A DNA stretch of 64,000 nt, taken from Paecilomyces variotii (taxonomy: Eukaryota). Positions 1,380-9,713 of this stretch are shown one piece after another. Every line of letters begins with the position of its first letter. Position 1 is the stretch's first letter. The notes beneath the pieces were generated by a model. It had not been told where the DNA came from. It did no database searches and was given only the letters and a program-made list of their open reading frames with translations. The stretch lies in assembly GCA_004022145.1 (NCBI GenBank), contig RCNU01000006.1; one strand, given 5' to 3'. The translations under genes were made by a program, and so were the position numbers.

Positions 1380-2043
1380 GATGGTTGTACGAAGCATTTG
1401 GCGGCGCGGAGCTGATTGCGCGCAACACCTGACTCGGTCTAATATAGATTGATTGATCGAATCCAAGTCACTTGGATCTCACGATCTGTATATGTTTGTT
1501 TAGAATGACTAGTGATGATGGGCTGACATCACATCACTTATAATAATTGCCCCAAGCGCCACGCTCGAAACCTTCAGAAAATAAAGGTTCGAACGGCTTA
1601 AACGGCCCGGACGGAGGCCATTTTCTTACAGTCGTCACTGGGTTGTGCCTTACGGAGATTCATCCAAGGAGTAGTAGTTATGGCCGCCGATGTCGTTTAC
1701 ATCACGTACTGGGATCTTGGTATCCCTGCGCGAGATGCAGCGAAGAATTGCATTCGCCTTGAAAAGAGGAAAGGTTAGGACCGTTCCTGGCCTTGCTTGA
1801 ATGTGGGACGGATCAGCCCTGCTTAGTGACGCACCTGGTGAACCGTGAATATCTTGTCCTTCCAACAATGACGATCCATCTTCGAGAAGCAGCTAAACAG
1901 CCTTGTTGCGCACGGTCCAGTTTCCCCGGACCAGCGCGAACACTTCGCTTTCGATCTGTCAGCATGATTCGGGTTTCCCCATAACGCTTCGTAACTCCTA
2001 CCTTATTTCTCTCCACAGAATCATTCGGATTTTTAAGCCTGGC

Positions 2044-3075
2044 ATGGGCTGGGTAGGAGTGGGTGCGATTATCGTCACGGCATGCTTTCTGCTTTATCGA
2101 TGTCCACCTTCTACCTGGGCATCCGGGCCTGGGACGAGCCTGCCGGAGTCGAAACCCGCCGGCCATAATCTTCCTCCTGTTCTCGAGAATGATAACGAGA
2201 AAACGCCTTCTGAGTCTGGAGAGAAGGTAGTGGAAGAAGACAAAGATGGTGGAGCGGCTCAAGAAACACCTAAAGCCAGCGCGACAGTCGCGCCGGCTAT
2301 GGATATCCCGAGTCTGAGTCTCGACAGCGAACACGCGACTGCAAAGCCAGGAGGATCTAAACCGCCTGAATATAACAAGCCGGCAGAGCATCTGATGCCC
2401 CCGCCATCTACGAAGCCTCCAGCATTCGCAGCTGCTACCCCTACGTTGAGCGCAAGCAGTTCCTCCTTGATGGCCCCTCCCCCACCTCGACTCCGAACGG
2501 CTCCCCAACAGCCTCAGCAAAACACACGACCGAAGACTGATGGGCTCCTTTCGGTGCCACGTGTGAAGTCAAGTACTCCTTTGCGCCCTCCCCCCTCTGC
2601 GGCGTCTTCTCTGCGCGCTCCGCCATCCAGCCGCCTCTCAAGCAGCACCCTCGCTCCAAAGCCGTCCCCTGCGAACGCGCGACACTCCAGGAAAGTGATT
2701 CTGGAACCGGGCCACTCGCCACTGGATTGGGCTGCGTTGACATCCAATCCGAATAGCAACCTACGGGGCGCCGGTCTCCCTCCTACGCTTATCAGGGTCA
2801 CGCCGTCGATGCTGAAGGTAATGAACGGACGGAAAGGGACAGATGCGTGGACTTCCTACCAAGGAAAGGTGTACAACATTACTCCGTACCTCCCTTTTCA
2901 TCCTGGAGGCAAAGGGGAACTGCTGCGAGGCGCAGGCAAGGATTCAGGGAAGCTTTTTGCAGAAGTCCATCCCTGGGTGAACTGGGACGGGTTGCTGGGG
3001 GAGTGCCTTGTAGGAATACTGGTTTCGGAGCATGACGCCCAGGCGCAGGAGAATTCTTTGGATGCTATGGACTGA
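2044..3075 (+). CDS. Cytochrome b5-like heme/steroid-binding domain protein (Irc21-like)
   Basis: ATG at 2044 (MGWVGVGAIIVTACFLL, a membrane anchor), a Pro/Ser-rich middle, then KVILEPGHSPLDWA and a cyt-b5 domain with VYNITPYLPFHPGG and HPWVN. Confidence 0.85.
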   Translation: MGWVGVGAIIVTACFLLYRCPPSTWASGPGTSLPESKPAGHNLPPVLENDNEKTPSESGEKVVEEDKDGGAAQETPKASATVAPAMDIPSLSLDSEHATAKPGGSKPPEYNKPAEHLMPPPSTKPPAFAAATPTLSASSSSLMAPPPPRLRTAPQQPQQNTRPKTDGLLSVPRVKSSTPLRPPPSAASSLRAPPSSRLSSSTLAPKPSPANARHSRKVILEPGHSPLDWAALTSNPNSNLRGAGLPPTLIRVTPSMLKVMNGRKGTDAWTSYQGKVYNITPYLPFHPGGKGELLRGAGKDSGKLFAEVHPWVNWDGLLGECLVGILVSEHDAQAQENSLDAMD

Positions 3076-3286: not shown

Positions 3287-3874
3287 TCACAGCTCATCCT
3301 TGTTGACACCGTCAATGCCCACGAGCTCCGTCTCGAAGATAAGCGTCGAGCCACCGGGGATCGGGCCAATGCCGCGATCACCATAGCCATACTCCGGAGG
3401 AATGGTGAGGGTCCGCTTCTCGCCAATACACATGTCGAGCAGACCTTGGTCCCATCTAAATCAATGTAATACCTGTCAGCAAGTCTGCACATAACCGCAG
3501 AAAGCAATCAATAAACAGCGACAGAGCCGGACAACTGCAGAGATCCCGCCCAATGAGACATTATACACATCTACACCAAGCCGCTGCACCCACAACCCCA
3601 TACAATATACCCCCTAATGATATCTAGCACTGTCCACTCACCCTTTAATAACCCTCCCTGTTCCAAGCTTGAATGTCAGCGGCGTGCCGCGATCATAGCT
3701 AGCATCAAACTGCGATCCATCCGACGCGAGCGTTCCACGATAATGCATGTGGACCGTATCTCCCTGGACAGTCTTGCGTTTGCACTCGACTTCCTTGGTC
3801 GTCTTGATGCCGAGCTCAGCGGCAAACACGGCTGTTACGGAGAGAAAAGCGGAAGTTAGGATGGAGAGACGCAT
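3287..3874 (-). CDS. fpr2: ER-luminal FKBP-type peptidyl-prolyl isomerase (FKBP13/Fpr2-like)
   Basis: Exons 3874-3642 and 3455-3287. Signal peptide, [34 protein letters not shown], and a C-terminal KDEL. Confidence 0.93.
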
Positions 3875-4906
3875 TGTTGCAGTGTAGTTAGACTAAGTGG
3901 TGCTTGGTTTTTTTCAATTGGTTTTGGAAAATGGATGAGGCGAGGAGAGTCTCGGTTTGAATGCTGCAATGGGTTTAAGATTAGGAGTATGGTAGGGTCG
4001 CTTGTTAAGTGGTGAAGCTGTTGCGGACAATCTGGGGGACAGATTGTTCCTTTTCCCTTTCTGGAATAGTGGGACTTGATGATAAGATAAGCTTAGATGA
4101 GAATAAGTAGATGCATCTTAGAGTTGAGGGGAATATAGGTAAGTACCATAGTCTGTACTGGATCTAGGCAAGTTCTGGGATCTTCAAGTTTACGGAAAAC
4201 AGTCACTGATTGAGTAGATATTTGATTTTCTCCTACATTTGTTTCCAGGCTTCCAGTTGCGGCCCACCATGGAGCAGAATCAGCAATGTTCCATTTCGAC
4301 CGACCGGATATTGTGAATCAATTTGGTCTAGACCTCATAGTACAGACTTACTTAGTCTTCGGATACATTTCCTGTTTGCGTCTATTTGAGATGCACCATC
4401 CCGTCCCCCTGAGAAAGGATGCAGGCAACCTGTCAACACCTAGTCGCTATGCTAGAAGCCGAGCTGCATCTTAACTCAGCTACAGGTATGCGGTTTTACA
4501 CACAGCGATCCATTTGAATCAGACATTCATCAAAGAAGACATTCTGCATGGAAGATACAGTCTCGGATAGTCGTGGGAGTTGTATCTGGACCCTCCGTAG
4601 GTCCTGGGGCATAAGTACCTAGGTAGGTGATGGATTTTCTTGAATTTAGTTCTTCGAGCGATCTATAAAGAATTCTCCATCCTAGACCTATATTCTGCTT
4701 CAGTCGTTGCTTCAGGTGTTCCAGGATCTGACGCTTTCTCAGAATATCTATATCTATATATATATATATATGCCGCGGAGAATCTCGCTTCTCACCTTAT
4801 ATATGGTAGTAGAGACATCTAGTGGGCGAGAGACAGATACCACAAATGGCTCGTGTCTTCTATAGAGAAGAAATGAAAACGTTATAACTTGCCGAGGATA
4901 GAATGC

Positions 4907-4970: not shown

Positions 4971-6254
4971 AAAAAGGTACTTACCGGCATGGCCCCTCAA
5001 GAGTTGTTCTTAAATAGCTTATCTCTTGACTTGGCATACCTCCTTTTCTTTTCTTTCCTTTTCTCTTCGATTCAACTAACATCCTATTAGACGCGGCCAC
5101 CTCGACAAGCCTCTGATTCACTGCCCCGAAATGAGAAACAGGGATATCTCAGGCTCATGGCTCCCCAAAGAAGCAATGACTAGGAAAATGACTCCGAACA
5201 CATTCCACTCGCGCTAACTGTTGCCATAGCCCTCGACTATATTCCCTTCGTCTATACATACACCTGGGCAGTTGCATCTATTCGGATTAACTCATGCGCG
5301 CCAACCTTCTATTAATGCCCATTGATGCCGTGAGGGGACGGATCGTGCTACCTGACGACATATTTCGTGTGGAATTAGCAGCGTCATGCGACATGGAACA
5401 AAGACCACGGAGTGGTGGAGAATAATACTTGGGTCCCTTCTATAAGGAATTTCTCGGGAACTCCCTACCTAGGGAGTCCCTGGCGGAGTTCTCCCACATC
5501 TTCTCAGCGAGCTCCACCCAGGGGGATAAATAGCCTGAGCCTGCTAGAGAATCCAAGCATCAGGCGGCTTCAACCTGCGAAGAATACTGGAGAAAGGCTG
5601 GCTGTTGCGGTCAGCAATCTCAGACCAACTGATGTGTTTTAGAGAAGCGCAGGTCTTCCTCCATGTTGATGACTTCTGATTGGAAGCAGAAGAGGACGGG
5701 TTTGGGATGTGGACAGGGTGACTCATGTTGAGAGCTCGTTTTCTGTATATAGCACAGCACAAGGACGAACTGTAATAGCATAAACTCATTGCATCGCTAT
5801 ATGCATGACGTACAAGGATAGTAACTAGCATTTGTCCACAAAGGATGACAATACCTACGAAACTTGAGGAGTTCATTTCAAGAGTACCTGTTATTCCTCA
5901 ACTCCGTTTACTGATCATGGCACACTAACATAAGAAGGCACTGATTCTATCAGAGATTCCTCAATATAACTGCTCTAATATGTGACGCTTTCAGTGCTAA
6001 AGAGAAAGGATAACATATACCAGTCGTCTGGTTTCGAGTAGAAGCAGTCTTGTTTTCTTTATCTTTAGTGTTCCAGTCTGGCCGGGACAGAAGCAGCATG
6101 ACTAAGCAATGCACGGACCACATTTAGCTGGTTGTCGACATCGCGCGAAAACTCGCACAGCAATTCATTCTTCTTGACAAGGCGACAATCCTTCCACTAC
6201 TTCCATTCTTGCCTGGCTTGGAGCTCTACCAGGACAATAATAGTGTAACTTAAG

Positions 6255-6439
6255 GTATGTGACACTATTCCAGCTATAACCCTTCCTCGAGTACCATGAT
6301 GAGCACTTTTATTGGAGCTGTCCTACCTTTTCCATGAGGACAAACTCATAAATACGCAACTTTAACTACCTGACTTTCCTCTTCTCTCTACACTCAGCCA
6401 TCCGCAGTTCCTCTAGTGAATACTGCTAACATTATCCAG
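6255..6439 (+). other. 5'-UTR intron of ssu72 (probable snoRNA host)
   Basis: GTATGT donor at 6255, GCTAAC branch site at ~6425, CCAG acceptor ending 6439, upstream of the ATG at 6561. Confidence 0.75.
6292..6378 (+). ncRNA. Probable intronic box C/D snoRNA
   Basis: C box ATGATGA 6296-6302, C' ATGAGGA 6334-6340, D box CTGA 6370-6373. The 11-nt element TATTGGAGCTG (6310-6320) is antisense to the conserved 18S rRNA sequence CAGCTCCAATA. Located about 50 nt upstream of the branch point. Confidence 0.72.
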
Positions 6440-6560
6440 GGCCTTCCAGAAGCTAGTTTAAATATCCTCCCTGTCACCAACACTACCTCATTCTTTTCTT
6501 AGAGCACTCTGGATTCCTTCTCGTAATATAGTCATAAAACACTCTAATAGCAAAATAAAT

Positions 6561-7439
6561 ATGGCTTCTGATCCTAGACTGGCAAGAAATGAGTCGGCCA
6601 CTCCCACCTCAGTTCCTCCTCCACCTCCGCCCCCTCCGCCAGAGTCTGCCTCGTCCAATCTTCCCTCTACCATGGACGGCCAGGCAGACGTTGGAGCCGC
6701 GGTGACACCGTCAGAATCTGGTTCATACAAACTGAAGTTCTGCACAGTCTGTGCCTCAAATCAGAACAGATCGATGGAGGCTCATATGCGTCTCTCGACT
6801 GCACCGACTCCTTATCCGGTAATATCTTTCGGTACCGGTTCGTTGGTACGACTACCTGGCCCGTCTATTACTCAGCCCAATGTCTACAACTTCAACACCG
6901 TTTCTTACGCCCAAATATACGATGAGTTGTATCAGAAGGACCCAAGGCTATATCGAAACAATGGGCTCCTGAATATGCTCGAGCGGAACAAGAACGTGAA
7001 GTGGGGTCCCGAAAGATTTCAAGATTGGGTACCAGGTCTGCCACGGTTAGATCATGTATCCAAGGGCGATAAAGGCGCCTTGGGAACAGAAGGTGGTATT
7101 GTCGACGTGATTATCACCTGCGAAGAGCGATGCTGGGACGCTGTTGTCGACGATCTTATGAACAAAGGATCACCCCTCAATCGCCCAGTGCACGTCTTCA
7201 ATGTTGACATCAAAGATAATCATGAAGAGGCCCTCGTGGGAGGTAAAGCCATACTCGACCTTGCCGACAGATTGAACGAGGCTGCCAACCAAGAGCGCCA
7301 GGCGAACGGTACTATCGGCTGGGGAAACGGTACTGGCGAGGCAAGACGAAATTTCGACGAACGAGTCCCAGAAATATTGGCTGAGTGGCAGGAAAAATGG
7401 CCCAACTTTCCGTCGTTATGGACGTTGGCTTGGCTTTGA
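6561..7439 (+). CDS. ssu72: RNA polymerase II CTD phosphatase Ssu72
   Basis: Catalytic motif [13 protein letters not shown], plus [19 protein letters not shown] and [11 protein letters not shown]. Confidence 0.96.
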
Positions 7440-8123: not shown

Positions 8124-9713
8124 ATGGCTGATGATAACGAAGACCATTACTTTGGGTTGACACCCATCGACCAGATCATGCCGCGTGGATATACACGTAT
8201 GGCTTTCTGTTTTCCGTTCGTTTCTGATAACCCTGTTCCAGCAATCGAGGCTCTTCAACAGGCGTACAAAGCTACAATCGCTCGTTTCCCTTTCATGGCT
8301 GGTACTGTCGCTCTCGAGAGAGATGGAGGGGAGCACACCGGTAGACTCGAGGTGCGCTACAATAACCACGATGTCGAAGAAGCGCACGTTTTCATCAAGA
8401 GACTCGAACCCCCCGAGTTTCCTCACACCTACGAAGAGCTGAAGAGCATGGGAATGCCTCCTAGCAAGCTTCCAGGTCCACTCATCTCACCACTCTCTGA
8501 TTTTCCAGATGCTACCAGGCCTTGTCCGGTCATGGCACTGCAGGCCAACTTCTTACCAGGCGGACTCATTCTGGCCGTCTACACCCACCGCAATGTCACC
8601 GATGCTACTGGCACTGCTGTCTTTCTCTATGCACTACGACAGAGCCTGGAGACCCATGGAGATACCCCGATAAACTTACCTGAGTTTGCTGATGACAAGC
8701 TGCGACTTCTTCTCACCCCAGGTTTACCACATACTAGTCCGCTGCATGAGCATCCAGAATACACGCTGGATACGGACCTAGTTGCAGTCTCTTCCCCTGG
8801 AGCAAGCCCTGGGAAAGGTTCTGACCGCAGAGAGGACGACCCTAGAGTCGAAGAGACGCAGCATTTAAACCAGGGGAAGATATTTGTCCTCTCTGAAGAA
8901 AAAGTTGAAGATCTCAAGAGATACTTGGTAAGTCGCGCCTCAGAGGAACAGAGCATGGATCAGGCAGGGAGTAGGACCCAAAGGCCCGTGGTCATGACAA
9001 AAGACGACACTCTGTGTGCTCTTATTTGGGTTTTTGTTACTCGTGCTCGTGCTCGTGCTCTGTGGCACACTACCCCTCAGAGCGAATCTCCAGACGACGA
9101 GTTATCAAGCTCGCTTAACATGTCTATCAGCATTCGGGGTCATATAGAACCACCAATACCCGCCTTCTATGTTGGCACAAGTGTGGTTTACTCCCAAGCA
9201 ACGCTTCCAGTGAAGACACTTCTTGGCGCAGACGGTGCAGGCCTCTTCATAGATGCCCAGTCATATTCAGTTCCTCCTAGTGCAGCATCTGCTCTTGCCC
9301 AGTCTGCCATCCAAATCCGTCATGCCGTTGACAGAGTGACTCCCTCACATGTCAGATCCCTCATATCCCTCTGCCATTCCACTGCAGATATCCGGCATCT
9401 ACAAGCGAACGTGCGTTGTGCGGGTGGCCCAGATGTTCTCATAACCAGCTGGAGTGATTTGAATCTCTCAGAGGGCGTGTGGGTTATTCCTGGATTAGGG
9501 AATAATGGCAACGTCGAGTTCATTCGCAAGCCATGGAGTCGCCAGGATGGAGCAATGATCTTGATGCCGAGAATTGACTTTGCGAACTACCACGGTAGTG
9601 ATGATGACGATGCAGATGGCCTGGAGGTCCTTATCCAACTGCGTAAAGAGGCTATGCGTTGTCTGGAGCAAGATACAGGCTTTATGTCCTACGTTACGAG
9701 AGTCATTGAGTAA
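8124..9713 (+). CDS. CoA-dependent acyltransferase (BAHD/trichothecene 3-O-acetyltransferase-like transferase family)
   Basis: Intronless. LTPIDQIMPR, FPFMAG, QANFLPGGLIL, HRNVTDATG at the HXXXD position, ITSW, and EFIRKP. Confidence 0.85.
   Translation: MADDNEDHYFGLTPIDQIMPRGYTRMAFCFPFVSDNPVPAIEALQQAYKATIARFPFMAGTVALERDGGEHTGRLEVRYNNHDVEEAHVFIKRLEPPEFPHTYEELKSMGMPPSKLPGPLISPLSDFPDATRPCPVMALQANFLPGGLILAVYTHRNVTDATGTAVFLYALRQSLETHGDTPINLPEFADDKLRLLLTPGLPHTSPLHEHPEYTLDTDLVAVSSPGASPGKGSDRREDDPRVEETQHLNQGKIFVLSEEKVEDLKRYLVSRASEEQSMDQAGSRTQRPVVMTKDDTLCALIWVFVTRARARALWHTTPQSESPDDELSSSLNMSISIRGHIEPPIPAFYVGTSVVYSQATLPVKTLLGADGAGLFIDAQSYSVPPSAASALAQSAIQIRHAVDRVTPSHVRSLISLCHSTADIRHLQANVRCAGGPDVLITSWSDLNLSEGVWVIPGLGNNGNVEFIRKPWSRQDGAMILMPRIDFANYHGSDDDDADGLEVLIQLRKEAMRCLEQDTGFMSYVTRVIE

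What the first reader, a model, noticed from the sequence alone, without database searches (positions are those of the whole stretch)
6255..6439. Unannotated box C/D snoRNA in the ssu72 5'-UTR intron, with an 18S rRNA guide
Seen: a 185-nt UTR intron holds C (ATGATGA), C' (ATGAGGA) and D (CTGA) boxes. It also holds TATTGGAGCTG, the perfect complement of the conserved 18S segment CAGCTCCAATA. A second stretch, CAACTTTAA, just before box D complements TTAAAGTTG a few nt downstream in the same 18S region. Known: intronic C/D snoRNAs lie ~50-80 nt from the branch/3' splice site and methylate the base paired 5 nt upstream of D/D'. Inference: if CCTA (6322) is D', the target is the C of CAG-C-UCC, which I do not recall as a yeast site. 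Ssu72 itself acts in snoRNA transcription termination in yeast, so the host gene is a notable one.
Basis: partly seen in the sequence, partly recalled or inferred. Interest (0 to 1): 0.7.

Follow-up and report, generated by a model that had tools for sequence, protein, structure and literature searches.

The report
Known fungal snoRNA in ssu72 intron
A spliced intron in the untranslated leader of the ssu72 gene holds a real small guide RNA that is predicted to methylate one cytidine of 18S ribosomal RNA; it is the counterpart of an RNA described in Neurospora in 2009, so it is genuine but not a new kind of thing.

Summary
The finding is real but belongs to a known family. The 185-nt intron 6255-6439 is spliced exactly there in 2 of 4 sequencing runs laid. 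It holds a box C/D snoRNA whose D' guide pairs 12 nt with 18S 582-593 and predicts Cm585 (yeast C587). This is the orthologue of Neurospora Nc CD30 (18S-Cm584, cloned and Northern-positive; PMC2780460), which Rfam lacks. Of 80 related ssu72 loci, 48 carry it upstream of ssu72, 1 is cut by a contig end, 1 has it in the neighbouring gene, 10 lack it (one clade) and 20 are too short. Eight of 37 distinct copies have canonical CTGA where this one has CCTA, which fixes the register. Not found in print: the ssu72 host (Liu listed CD30 as intergenic). Methylation and the mature RNA were not observed here. The scan's earlier notes held no copy of this family.

The parts
6178..6254 (+). non-coding first exon of ssu72 (left end is only the limit of RNA-contig cover, not a mapped start)
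   Evidence: RNA contigs join this stretch to 6440 (X3 record from 6178, X4 from 6201); spliced leader has no ATG in 198 nt
6255..6439 (+). 185-nt spliceosomal intron in the ssu72 5' UTR, host of the snoRNA
   Evidence: 185-nt skip with GT..AG ends in runs X3 and X4, not in X1 or X16; splice signals around the RNA in 36 of 37 distinct copies
6291..6376 (+). box C/D snoRNA, orthologue of Nc CD30; core from box C to box D is 6296-6373 (78 nt); mature ends inferred, a few nt outside the boxes
6296..6302 (+). box C (ATGATGA), 41 nt after the 5' splice site
   Evidence: GAT invariant and flanks at least 90% conserved in alignment A1
6309..6320 (+). D' antisense guide, 12 bp with 18S 582-593 (one G:U); G6317 pairs with the predicted target C585
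   Evidence: exact 11-mer in 45 of 48 related loci
6322..6325 (+). box D' (CCTA), one T after the guide
   Evidence: at this position 37 distinct copies read CCTA 15, CTTA 10, CTGA 8, CTGT 2, CGTA 1, CGAA 1
6334..6340 (+). box C' (ATGAGGA), 8 nt after D'
   Evidence: T, G, G, A columns invariant in A1
6352..6357 (+). conserved extra-pairing element ATACGC, complementary to 18S 593-598, directly 3' of the guide duplex
   Evidence: at least 5 nt complementary to 18S 593-600 in 34 of 37 copies, mean run 6.1 against 3.1 for random rRNA windows
6357..6365 (+). CAACTTTAA, complementary to 18S 600-608; not in methylation register; possibly a variable further pairing element
6370..6373 (+). box D (CTGA); 56 nt to the branch A, 66 nt to the 3' splice site
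   Evidence: median D-to-branch distance 58 nt, range 42-71, in 36 copies
6425..6430 (+). branch site GCTAAC (branch A 6429, inferred from consensus)
6561..7439 (+). ssu72 coding sequence, 292 aa, RNA polymerase II CTD phosphatase
   Evidence: Pfam PF04722, E 1.9e-74; ORF

Best explanation
An intron-encoded single-guide box C/D snoRNA of the Nc CD30 family. Shown here: ssu72 pre-mRNA loses intron 6255-6439 by splicing; boxes, guide, register and intron position are conserved across distant fungi. Inferred from established snoRNA biology: the core proteins (Snu13, Nop1, Nop56, Nop58) load on the boxes, the excised intron is debranched and trimmed to about 80-86 nt, the D' guide pairs with 18S 582-593, and Nop1 2'-O-methylates C585 (N. 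crassa C584, yeast C587), paired to the fifth base upstream of D'. The TACGC element in the idle D-side slot pairs with 18S 593-598 next to the guide duplex and is expected to raise methylation efficiency, as extra pairing does in yeast snR75, snR76 and snR70. The ssu72 gene supplies transcription; no special regulatory tie is needed.
For: Splice joint at the exact ends in two studies. Same RNA upstream of ssu72 on the sense strand in 48 of 80 loci whose Ssu72 proteins are 68-87% identical to this one over residues 57-292. Splice-site-like motif before and branch plus AG after in 36 of 37 distinct copies; branch test fires at 39 of 315 control places. Canonical CTGA at the D' position in 8 of 37 copies, spacer T and first C invariant. 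Nc CD30 shares by eye box C, a 16-nt run through the guide into D', an 8-nt run at C' and AUACGC, has the same target (9 nt 3' of the snR77 site in both numberings) and was cloned and seen on Northern blots. Extra-pairing precedent: PMC3116282 Results.
Against: No small RNA and no methylation were observed in this species; the runs were contigs and cannot show a small RNA. In Neurospora the methylation at C584 is a prediction; the primer-extension mapping I found was for CD11 and CD29. Ten loci with enough upstream sequence lack the RNA within the fetched flanks, so it is not tied to ssu72 everywhere. Three of 48 loci have one mismatch in the guide. No terminal stem, and no folding signal (z -0.05). 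I could not check that Nc CD30 itself lies in the Neurospora ssu72 intron; Liu lists it as intergenic.
Confidence: 0.88

Rival explanations
1. A real snoRNP that acts mainly as an rRNA folding chaperone: guide plus extra elements can cover 18S 582-609, the 3' strand of helix 18 and what follows, holding it open during 40S assembly, with methylation absent or incidental.
For: Three nearby complements (582-593, 593-598, 600-609) in this copy; 21 of 37 copies have a run of 6 nt or more against 18S 600-635, mean 5.6 against 3.8 in controls.
Against: The guide-to-D' spacing is invariant in 37 of 37 copies, which a methylation register requires and a chaperone does not. The third complement varies in position, was defined after seeing the data, and partly follows from the fixed GC of TACGC. 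One clade does without the RNA at this locus.
Confidence: 0.07
2. A double guide: CAACTTTAA before box D directs a second methylation, at 18S U600.
For: The fifth base upstream of box D (A6365) does pair with U600, within a 10-bp run including one G:U; a 9-nt complement this close to the first target has chance 0.007.
Against: Positions 1-4 upstream of box D are all mismatched, so the target would sit at the very end of the duplex; the 9-mer is in 1 of 37 copies and the spacing from ACGC to box D ranges from 3 to 12 nt; Nc CD30 has no D target in Liu's table.
Confidence: 0.02
3. In addition to guiding, the snoRNA intron is a feedback switch for ssu72: Ssu72-dependent early termination after box D would yield snoRNA without mRNA.
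For: Ssu72 is reported to act in snoRNA termination in yeast (passages and reference titles in PMC6265451); the host link is old (48 loci); an unspliced intron-exon contig 6375-6467 exists in run X3.
Against: The geometry is that of splicing-dependent processing (D to branch median 58 nt); Nrd1-type words after box D 0 against 8.0 expected, Nab3-type 20 against 12.7 in a pyrimidine tract; in L096 the RNA sits in another gene's intron. The unspliced contig may be DNA or pre-mRNA.
Confidence: 0.03
4. Chance collection of short motifs in an intron.
For: No Rfam match at gathering score, only weak generic C/D hits (E 1.3-5.7); the motif set alone arises 0.37 times per resampled window.
Against: Conserved in place in 48 loci while the flanking intron diverges; expressed orthologue in Neurospora.
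Confidence: 0.005

Closest known systems
Neurospora crassa Nc CD30 (GenBank EU780954; Liu et al. 2009, PMC2780460, Table 1 and Additional file 1)
   Same: Same D' guide and predicted target (18S-Cm584, 12/0), similar length (84 nt), same order of boxes, shared run after C' and shared AUACGC (compared by eye).
   Different: Liu lists it as intergenic and counts intergenic C/D genes as independently transcribed; here and in 48 related loci it lies in the ssu72 5' UTR intron. D' is CCTA here, CUGU there; the D'-C' spacer is 8 nt here and a longer hairpin there.
Yeast single-guide snoRNAs with extra base-pairing (snR75, snR76, snR70; van Nues et al. 2011, PMC3116282)
   Same: A conserved 4-11 nt complement to rRNA next to the target, placed in the unused second guide region, not in register with box D, sometimes overlapping the guide duplex by 1-2 nt; TACGC fits all of these.
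   Different: Different targets; the stimulation was measured in yeast, not for this family.
U54/SNORD54 (Rfam RF00206)
   Same: Its consensus guide contains AUACGC and so pairs with the same 18S segment as the extra element here.
   Different: U54 places that sequence in methylation register for the G of AAUA-G-CGU; here it is 3-12 nt out of a fixed register. The model does not hit this locus in the genome nor homologue L065.
Fungal snoRNA families with lineage-specific D-box targets (Canzler et al. 2018, PMC5824354)
   Same: A fixed D' guide with a second slot that gains targets in some lineages; seen here in four groups of homologues.
   Different: The main text never names CD30 and its supplements could not be read, so what it says of this family is unknown to me.

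Membership tests
box C/D methylation-guide snoRNA | box C (RUGAUGA) near the 5' end and box D (CUGA) near the 3' end, 60-130 nt apart | tested here: met
   6296-6302 and 6370-6373, core 78 nt
box C/D methylation-guide snoRNA | internal D' and C' boxes | tested here: met
   CCTA aligns with canonical CTGA in 8 of 37 copies; C' columns invariant
box C/D methylation-guide snoRNA | 10-21 nt complement to rRNA ending next to D or D', covering the fifth position | tested here: met
   12 bp with own 18S 582-593, one spacer base before D'
box C/D methylation-guide snoRNA | evolutionary conservation of boxes and guide against a diverging background | tested here: met
   exact guide in 45 of 48 loci; mean column identity 48%
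intron-encoded box C/D snoRNA | lies in a spliced intron on the sense strand at a fitting distance from the branch site | tested here: met
   splice joint in X3 and X4; 56 nt D to branch A, family median 58
box C/D methylation-guide snoRNA | short terminal stem closing the C/D motif (common, not universal) | tested here: not met
   flanks of C and D are not complementary; fold z-score -0.05. From recall, intronic fungal snoRNAs often lack it
box C/D methylation-guide snoRNA | stable small RNA accumulates | not testable with these tools
   only contigs were served; the Neurospora orthologue was cloned and Northern-positive
box C/D methylation-guide snoRNA | binds Snu13/Nop1/Nop56/Nop58 and the target ribose is methylated | not testable with these tools
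   no data; Chaetomium 18S Nm sites are colour-coded in a figure that could not be read
Nc CD30 family | D' guide for 18S C584-equivalent | tested here: met
   target 9 nt 3' of the snR77 site in both species
Nc CD30 family | sequence likeness outside the guide | tested here: met
   shared run after C' and AUACGC, compared by eye with Additional file 1; no scored alignment was made
Nc CD30 family | same genomic locus as in N. crassa | not testable with these tools
   N. crassa genome not held; homologues with CUGU at D' like Nc CD30 (L065, L093) lie in the ssu72 intron
U54/SNORD54 (RF00206) | guide AUACGCUAUU in D/D'+5 register; model match | tested here: not met
snR61 (RF00476) or Afu_294 (RF01506) | family guide and gathering score | tested here: not met
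   17.8 of 45 and 13.3 of 43 bits, matches confined to boxes

The most novel reading that the evidence does not exclude
The long-kept pairing of this snoRNA with ssu72 is regulatory: the CTD phosphatase that yeast needs to terminate snoRNA transcripts controls its own mRNA by deciding whether Pol II stops after box D (snoRNA only) or continues and splices (snoRNA plus mRNA), tying Ssu72 dose to ribosome modification in filamentous fungi. My tests gave no support but contigs cannot show RNA ends, so it is not excluded.
Probability: 0.03. Interest if true: 0.6.

Novelty: new member of a known kind. Interest (0 to 1): 0.2.

Why it matters
Modestly. It fills an Rfam gap for a widespread filamentous-fungal snoRNA, suggests that Nc CD30's 'intergenic' label should be rechecked, and warns that deleting ssu72 with its leader also removes a snoRNA. 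The predicted methyl lies in 18S helix 18, ten bases from the decoding-site G (yeast G577; placement recalled, not from a call) and has no listed counterpart in the two yeasts, Arabidopsis or human, so it is a testable ribosome difference between moulds and yeasts. The family is also a tidy case of a fixed guide with a second slot refilled several times.

Tried and rejected
Rfam at gathering score over the window: 0 matches; E-value mode on 6230-6460: 4 weak matches, none near cut-off; on homologue L065: 15 weak matches, none near cut-off. Secondary structure: no signal. U54 ancestry: model hits two other places in the genome at E 1.26 and 3.91, not this locus. Second copy in the genome: of 18 exact guide sites only this one has box C in the 30 nt before it; a looser box C plus guide-core pattern gave 6 matches against 2 controls, the other five lacking the first two guide bases; a model search of the genome was not available. 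D-box methylation guide in this species: none with 8 or more Watson-Crick pairs in register against 18S, ITS/5.8S or LSU; snRNAs, 5S and tRNAs were not tested. Yeast-type terminator words after box D: not enriched for Nrd1. The snoRNA body is not covered by RNA contigs in X3 or X4; a gap in contigs proves nothing. Literature: 'ssu72 + snoRNA + intron' gave 58 papers, 25 listed, none on a snoRNA hosted by ssu72 by title or abstract start; 'Cm584 + 18S + snoRNA' gave only Liu 2009; searches gave no site-level map that I could read. 'ssu72' does not occur in the main text of PMC3890542, PMC5824354 or PMC5640933 nor in Liu's readable supplements. Supplements not readable: PMC5824354, PMC2377427; either may already record this family or its host. 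My first automatic box D call for L045, L070 and L091 picked an internal CTGA and was corrected.

Full report
Observation. The genome is that of a filamentous ascomycete (judged by eye from gene content and rDNA). Using its own rDNA, the stretch 6309-6320 is the longest complement in the candidate to 18S, ITS/5.8S or LSU: 12 bp with 18S 582-593, one of them G:U. On their own these motifs are weak evidence. The 11-mer occurs 18 times in the genome against 16 for a reversed control; a C...D frame with an 11-nt rRNA complement appears 0.37 times per resampled window (60 resamples); Rfam has no match at gathering score and only box-level weak hits; the RNA has no folding signal.

The intron is spliced. 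I laid 4 of the 24 listed runs. X3 (RNA on record) and X4 (RNA by guess), from different studies, each have a contig that skips 185 nt with GT..AG ends, equivalent to 6255-6439. X1 and X16 are colinear with the genome. The spliced leader has no ATG, the intron has four. X3 also has a contig joining the 3' part of the intron to exon 2, which may be pre-mRNA or DNA. Contigs cannot show the small RNA itself.

Conservation. A scan of metagenome contigs with Ssu72 returned the best 80 of 243 confirmed stretches. Of the 80: 48 carry the guide on the sense strand 151-568 nt before the protein match, exact in 45 and with one mismatch in 3; 1 (L060) begins inside the RNA's 3' part; 1 (L096) has it on the opposite strand; 10 have ample upstream sequence and no trace by pattern or by model R1; 20 are too short to judge. 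The 10 fall in one clade of the Ssu72 tree with six short loci and no carrier (FastTree support 0.963). Carriers are 68-87% identical to this protein over residues 57-292; I did not assign taxa. Collapsing identical cores gives 37 including the window. In 36 of 37 a 5' splice-site-like motif lies 46-83 nt before the guide and a branch motif plus AG follows box D, median 58 nt to the branch A; the miss is a short contig. The branch test fires at 39 of 315 control places; the motif lists were widened after a first look and the 5' test had no control.

Register and target. After the guide comes one invariant T, then CCTA (15), CTTA (10), CTGA (8), CTGT (2), CGTA (1) or CGAA (1). Canonical CTGA in eight copies settles D'. 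The fifth base upstream, G6317, pairs with C585 of the own 18S, nine bases 3' of the snR77 site U576.

It is a described RNA. Table 1 of Liu et al. 2009 (PMC2780460; I read parts 1-3 of 6 of the text, find passages and Additional file 1) lists Nc CD30: 84 nt, found by cDNA cloning and Northern blot, target 18S-Cm584 through D', 12/0, no homologue in S. pombe, S. cerevisiae, Arabidopsis or human, location intergenic. Its snR77 site is Um575, so the offset is the same nine bases. By eye its sequence shares box C, a 16-nt run through the guide into D', an 8-nt run at C' and AUACGC with the window. The methylation there is predicted; the mapping I found concerned CD11 and CD29. A full-text search for Cm584 returned only this paper. 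A 2025 Chaetomium study assigns 33 Nm sites to 18S against 18 in yeast (PMC12723226; passages, section 25, supplement parts 1 and 85-87), which leaves room for such a site, but the positions are colour-coded in a figure I could not read.

The second element. What is conserved is the overlapping TACGC (30 of 37): 34 of 37 copies have 5 or more bases complementary to 18S 593-600, mean 6.1 against 3.1 for random rRNA windows, and its distance to box D floats from 3 to 12 nt. This is the pattern of extra base-pairing described by van Nues et al. 2011 (PMC3116282; abstract and second half of Results), where such elements in the idle guide slot raise methylation 2-5-fold. TACGC is also the core of the U54 guide; the U54 model matches neither this locus nor L065, so I read this as a shared target segment, not membership.

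The D-side slot in relatives. Ten of 36 other copies have an in-register D guide of 12-13 bp to LSU (own numbering): A366 in L031 and L072, C2207 in L066, L067, L073, L074 and L076, U2699 in L045, L070 and L091; L095 has one to U2118, making eleven. The U2699 guide matches by eye the D guide of Nc CD49, the yeast 25S-2724 site that Canzler et al. 2018 report as served by three different families (PMC5824354; passages and section 27); this would be a fourth. The window's copy has no such guide.

The host gene. Ssu72 is tied to snoRNA termination in yeast (passages of PMC6265451), but an intronic snoRNA released by splicing does not need that pathway. I found no yeast-type terminator signature after box D, and in L096 the RNA sits in an intron on the other strand while ssu72 keeps a leader intron without it. 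I did not find the ssu72 host in print, but two relevant supplements were unreadable.

Verdict. A correct call of an ordinary, already described snoRNA family. Shown: motifs, splicing, conservation, register. Inferred: mature RNA, snoRNP, methylation of C585, stimulation by TACGC. Small additions: the conserved ssu72 host, the extra-pairing element, repeated refilling of the D slot, one clade without it at this locus. The scan's earlier notes had no look-alike and only other snoRNA families. Interest 0.2.

Noticed in passing
L031:2160-2186, L072:2133-2158, L066:189-214, L067, L073, L074, L076, L045:2268-2293, L070, L091, L095:2357-2382: Homologues carry different in-register D-box guides to LSU (A366, C2207, U2699, U2118 in the window genome's numbering; 12-13 bp), so the second slot was refilled at least four times.
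   Followed up: partly
L033:2336-2360 and L034: This copy lacks TACGC and has a distinct D-side sequence with no in-register match to 18S, 5.8S or LSU; snRNA or tRNA targets not tested.
   Followed up: no
L096:90-159 (minus strand): The snoRNA lies in an intron transcribed away from ssu72, about 620 nt upstream of the protein match, while ssu72 appears to keep a short leader intron without it; relocation or local inversion.
   Followed up: partly
L038, L042, L043, L049, L056, L061, L075, L103, L104, L106: One Ssu72 clade (support 0.963) has no snoRNA in the fetched flanks; whether it is lost or moved is open.
   Followed up: partly
window 6375-6467: Run X3 has a contig joining the 3' part of the intron to exon 2, beginning two bases after box D; contigs cannot show RNA ends, so this is only a lead for unspliced or snoRNA-trimmed transcripts.
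   Followed up: no
window 8124-9713 (+): Downstream gene is an acyltransferase (Pfam TRI-like_N PF22664 and Transferase PF02458).
   Followed up: no
window 1897-3075 (+) and about 3287-3892 (-): A cytochrome b5-like domain protein (PF00173) and, by eye, an intron-containing FKBP-type prolyl isomerase with signal peptide and KDEL end.
   Followed up: no
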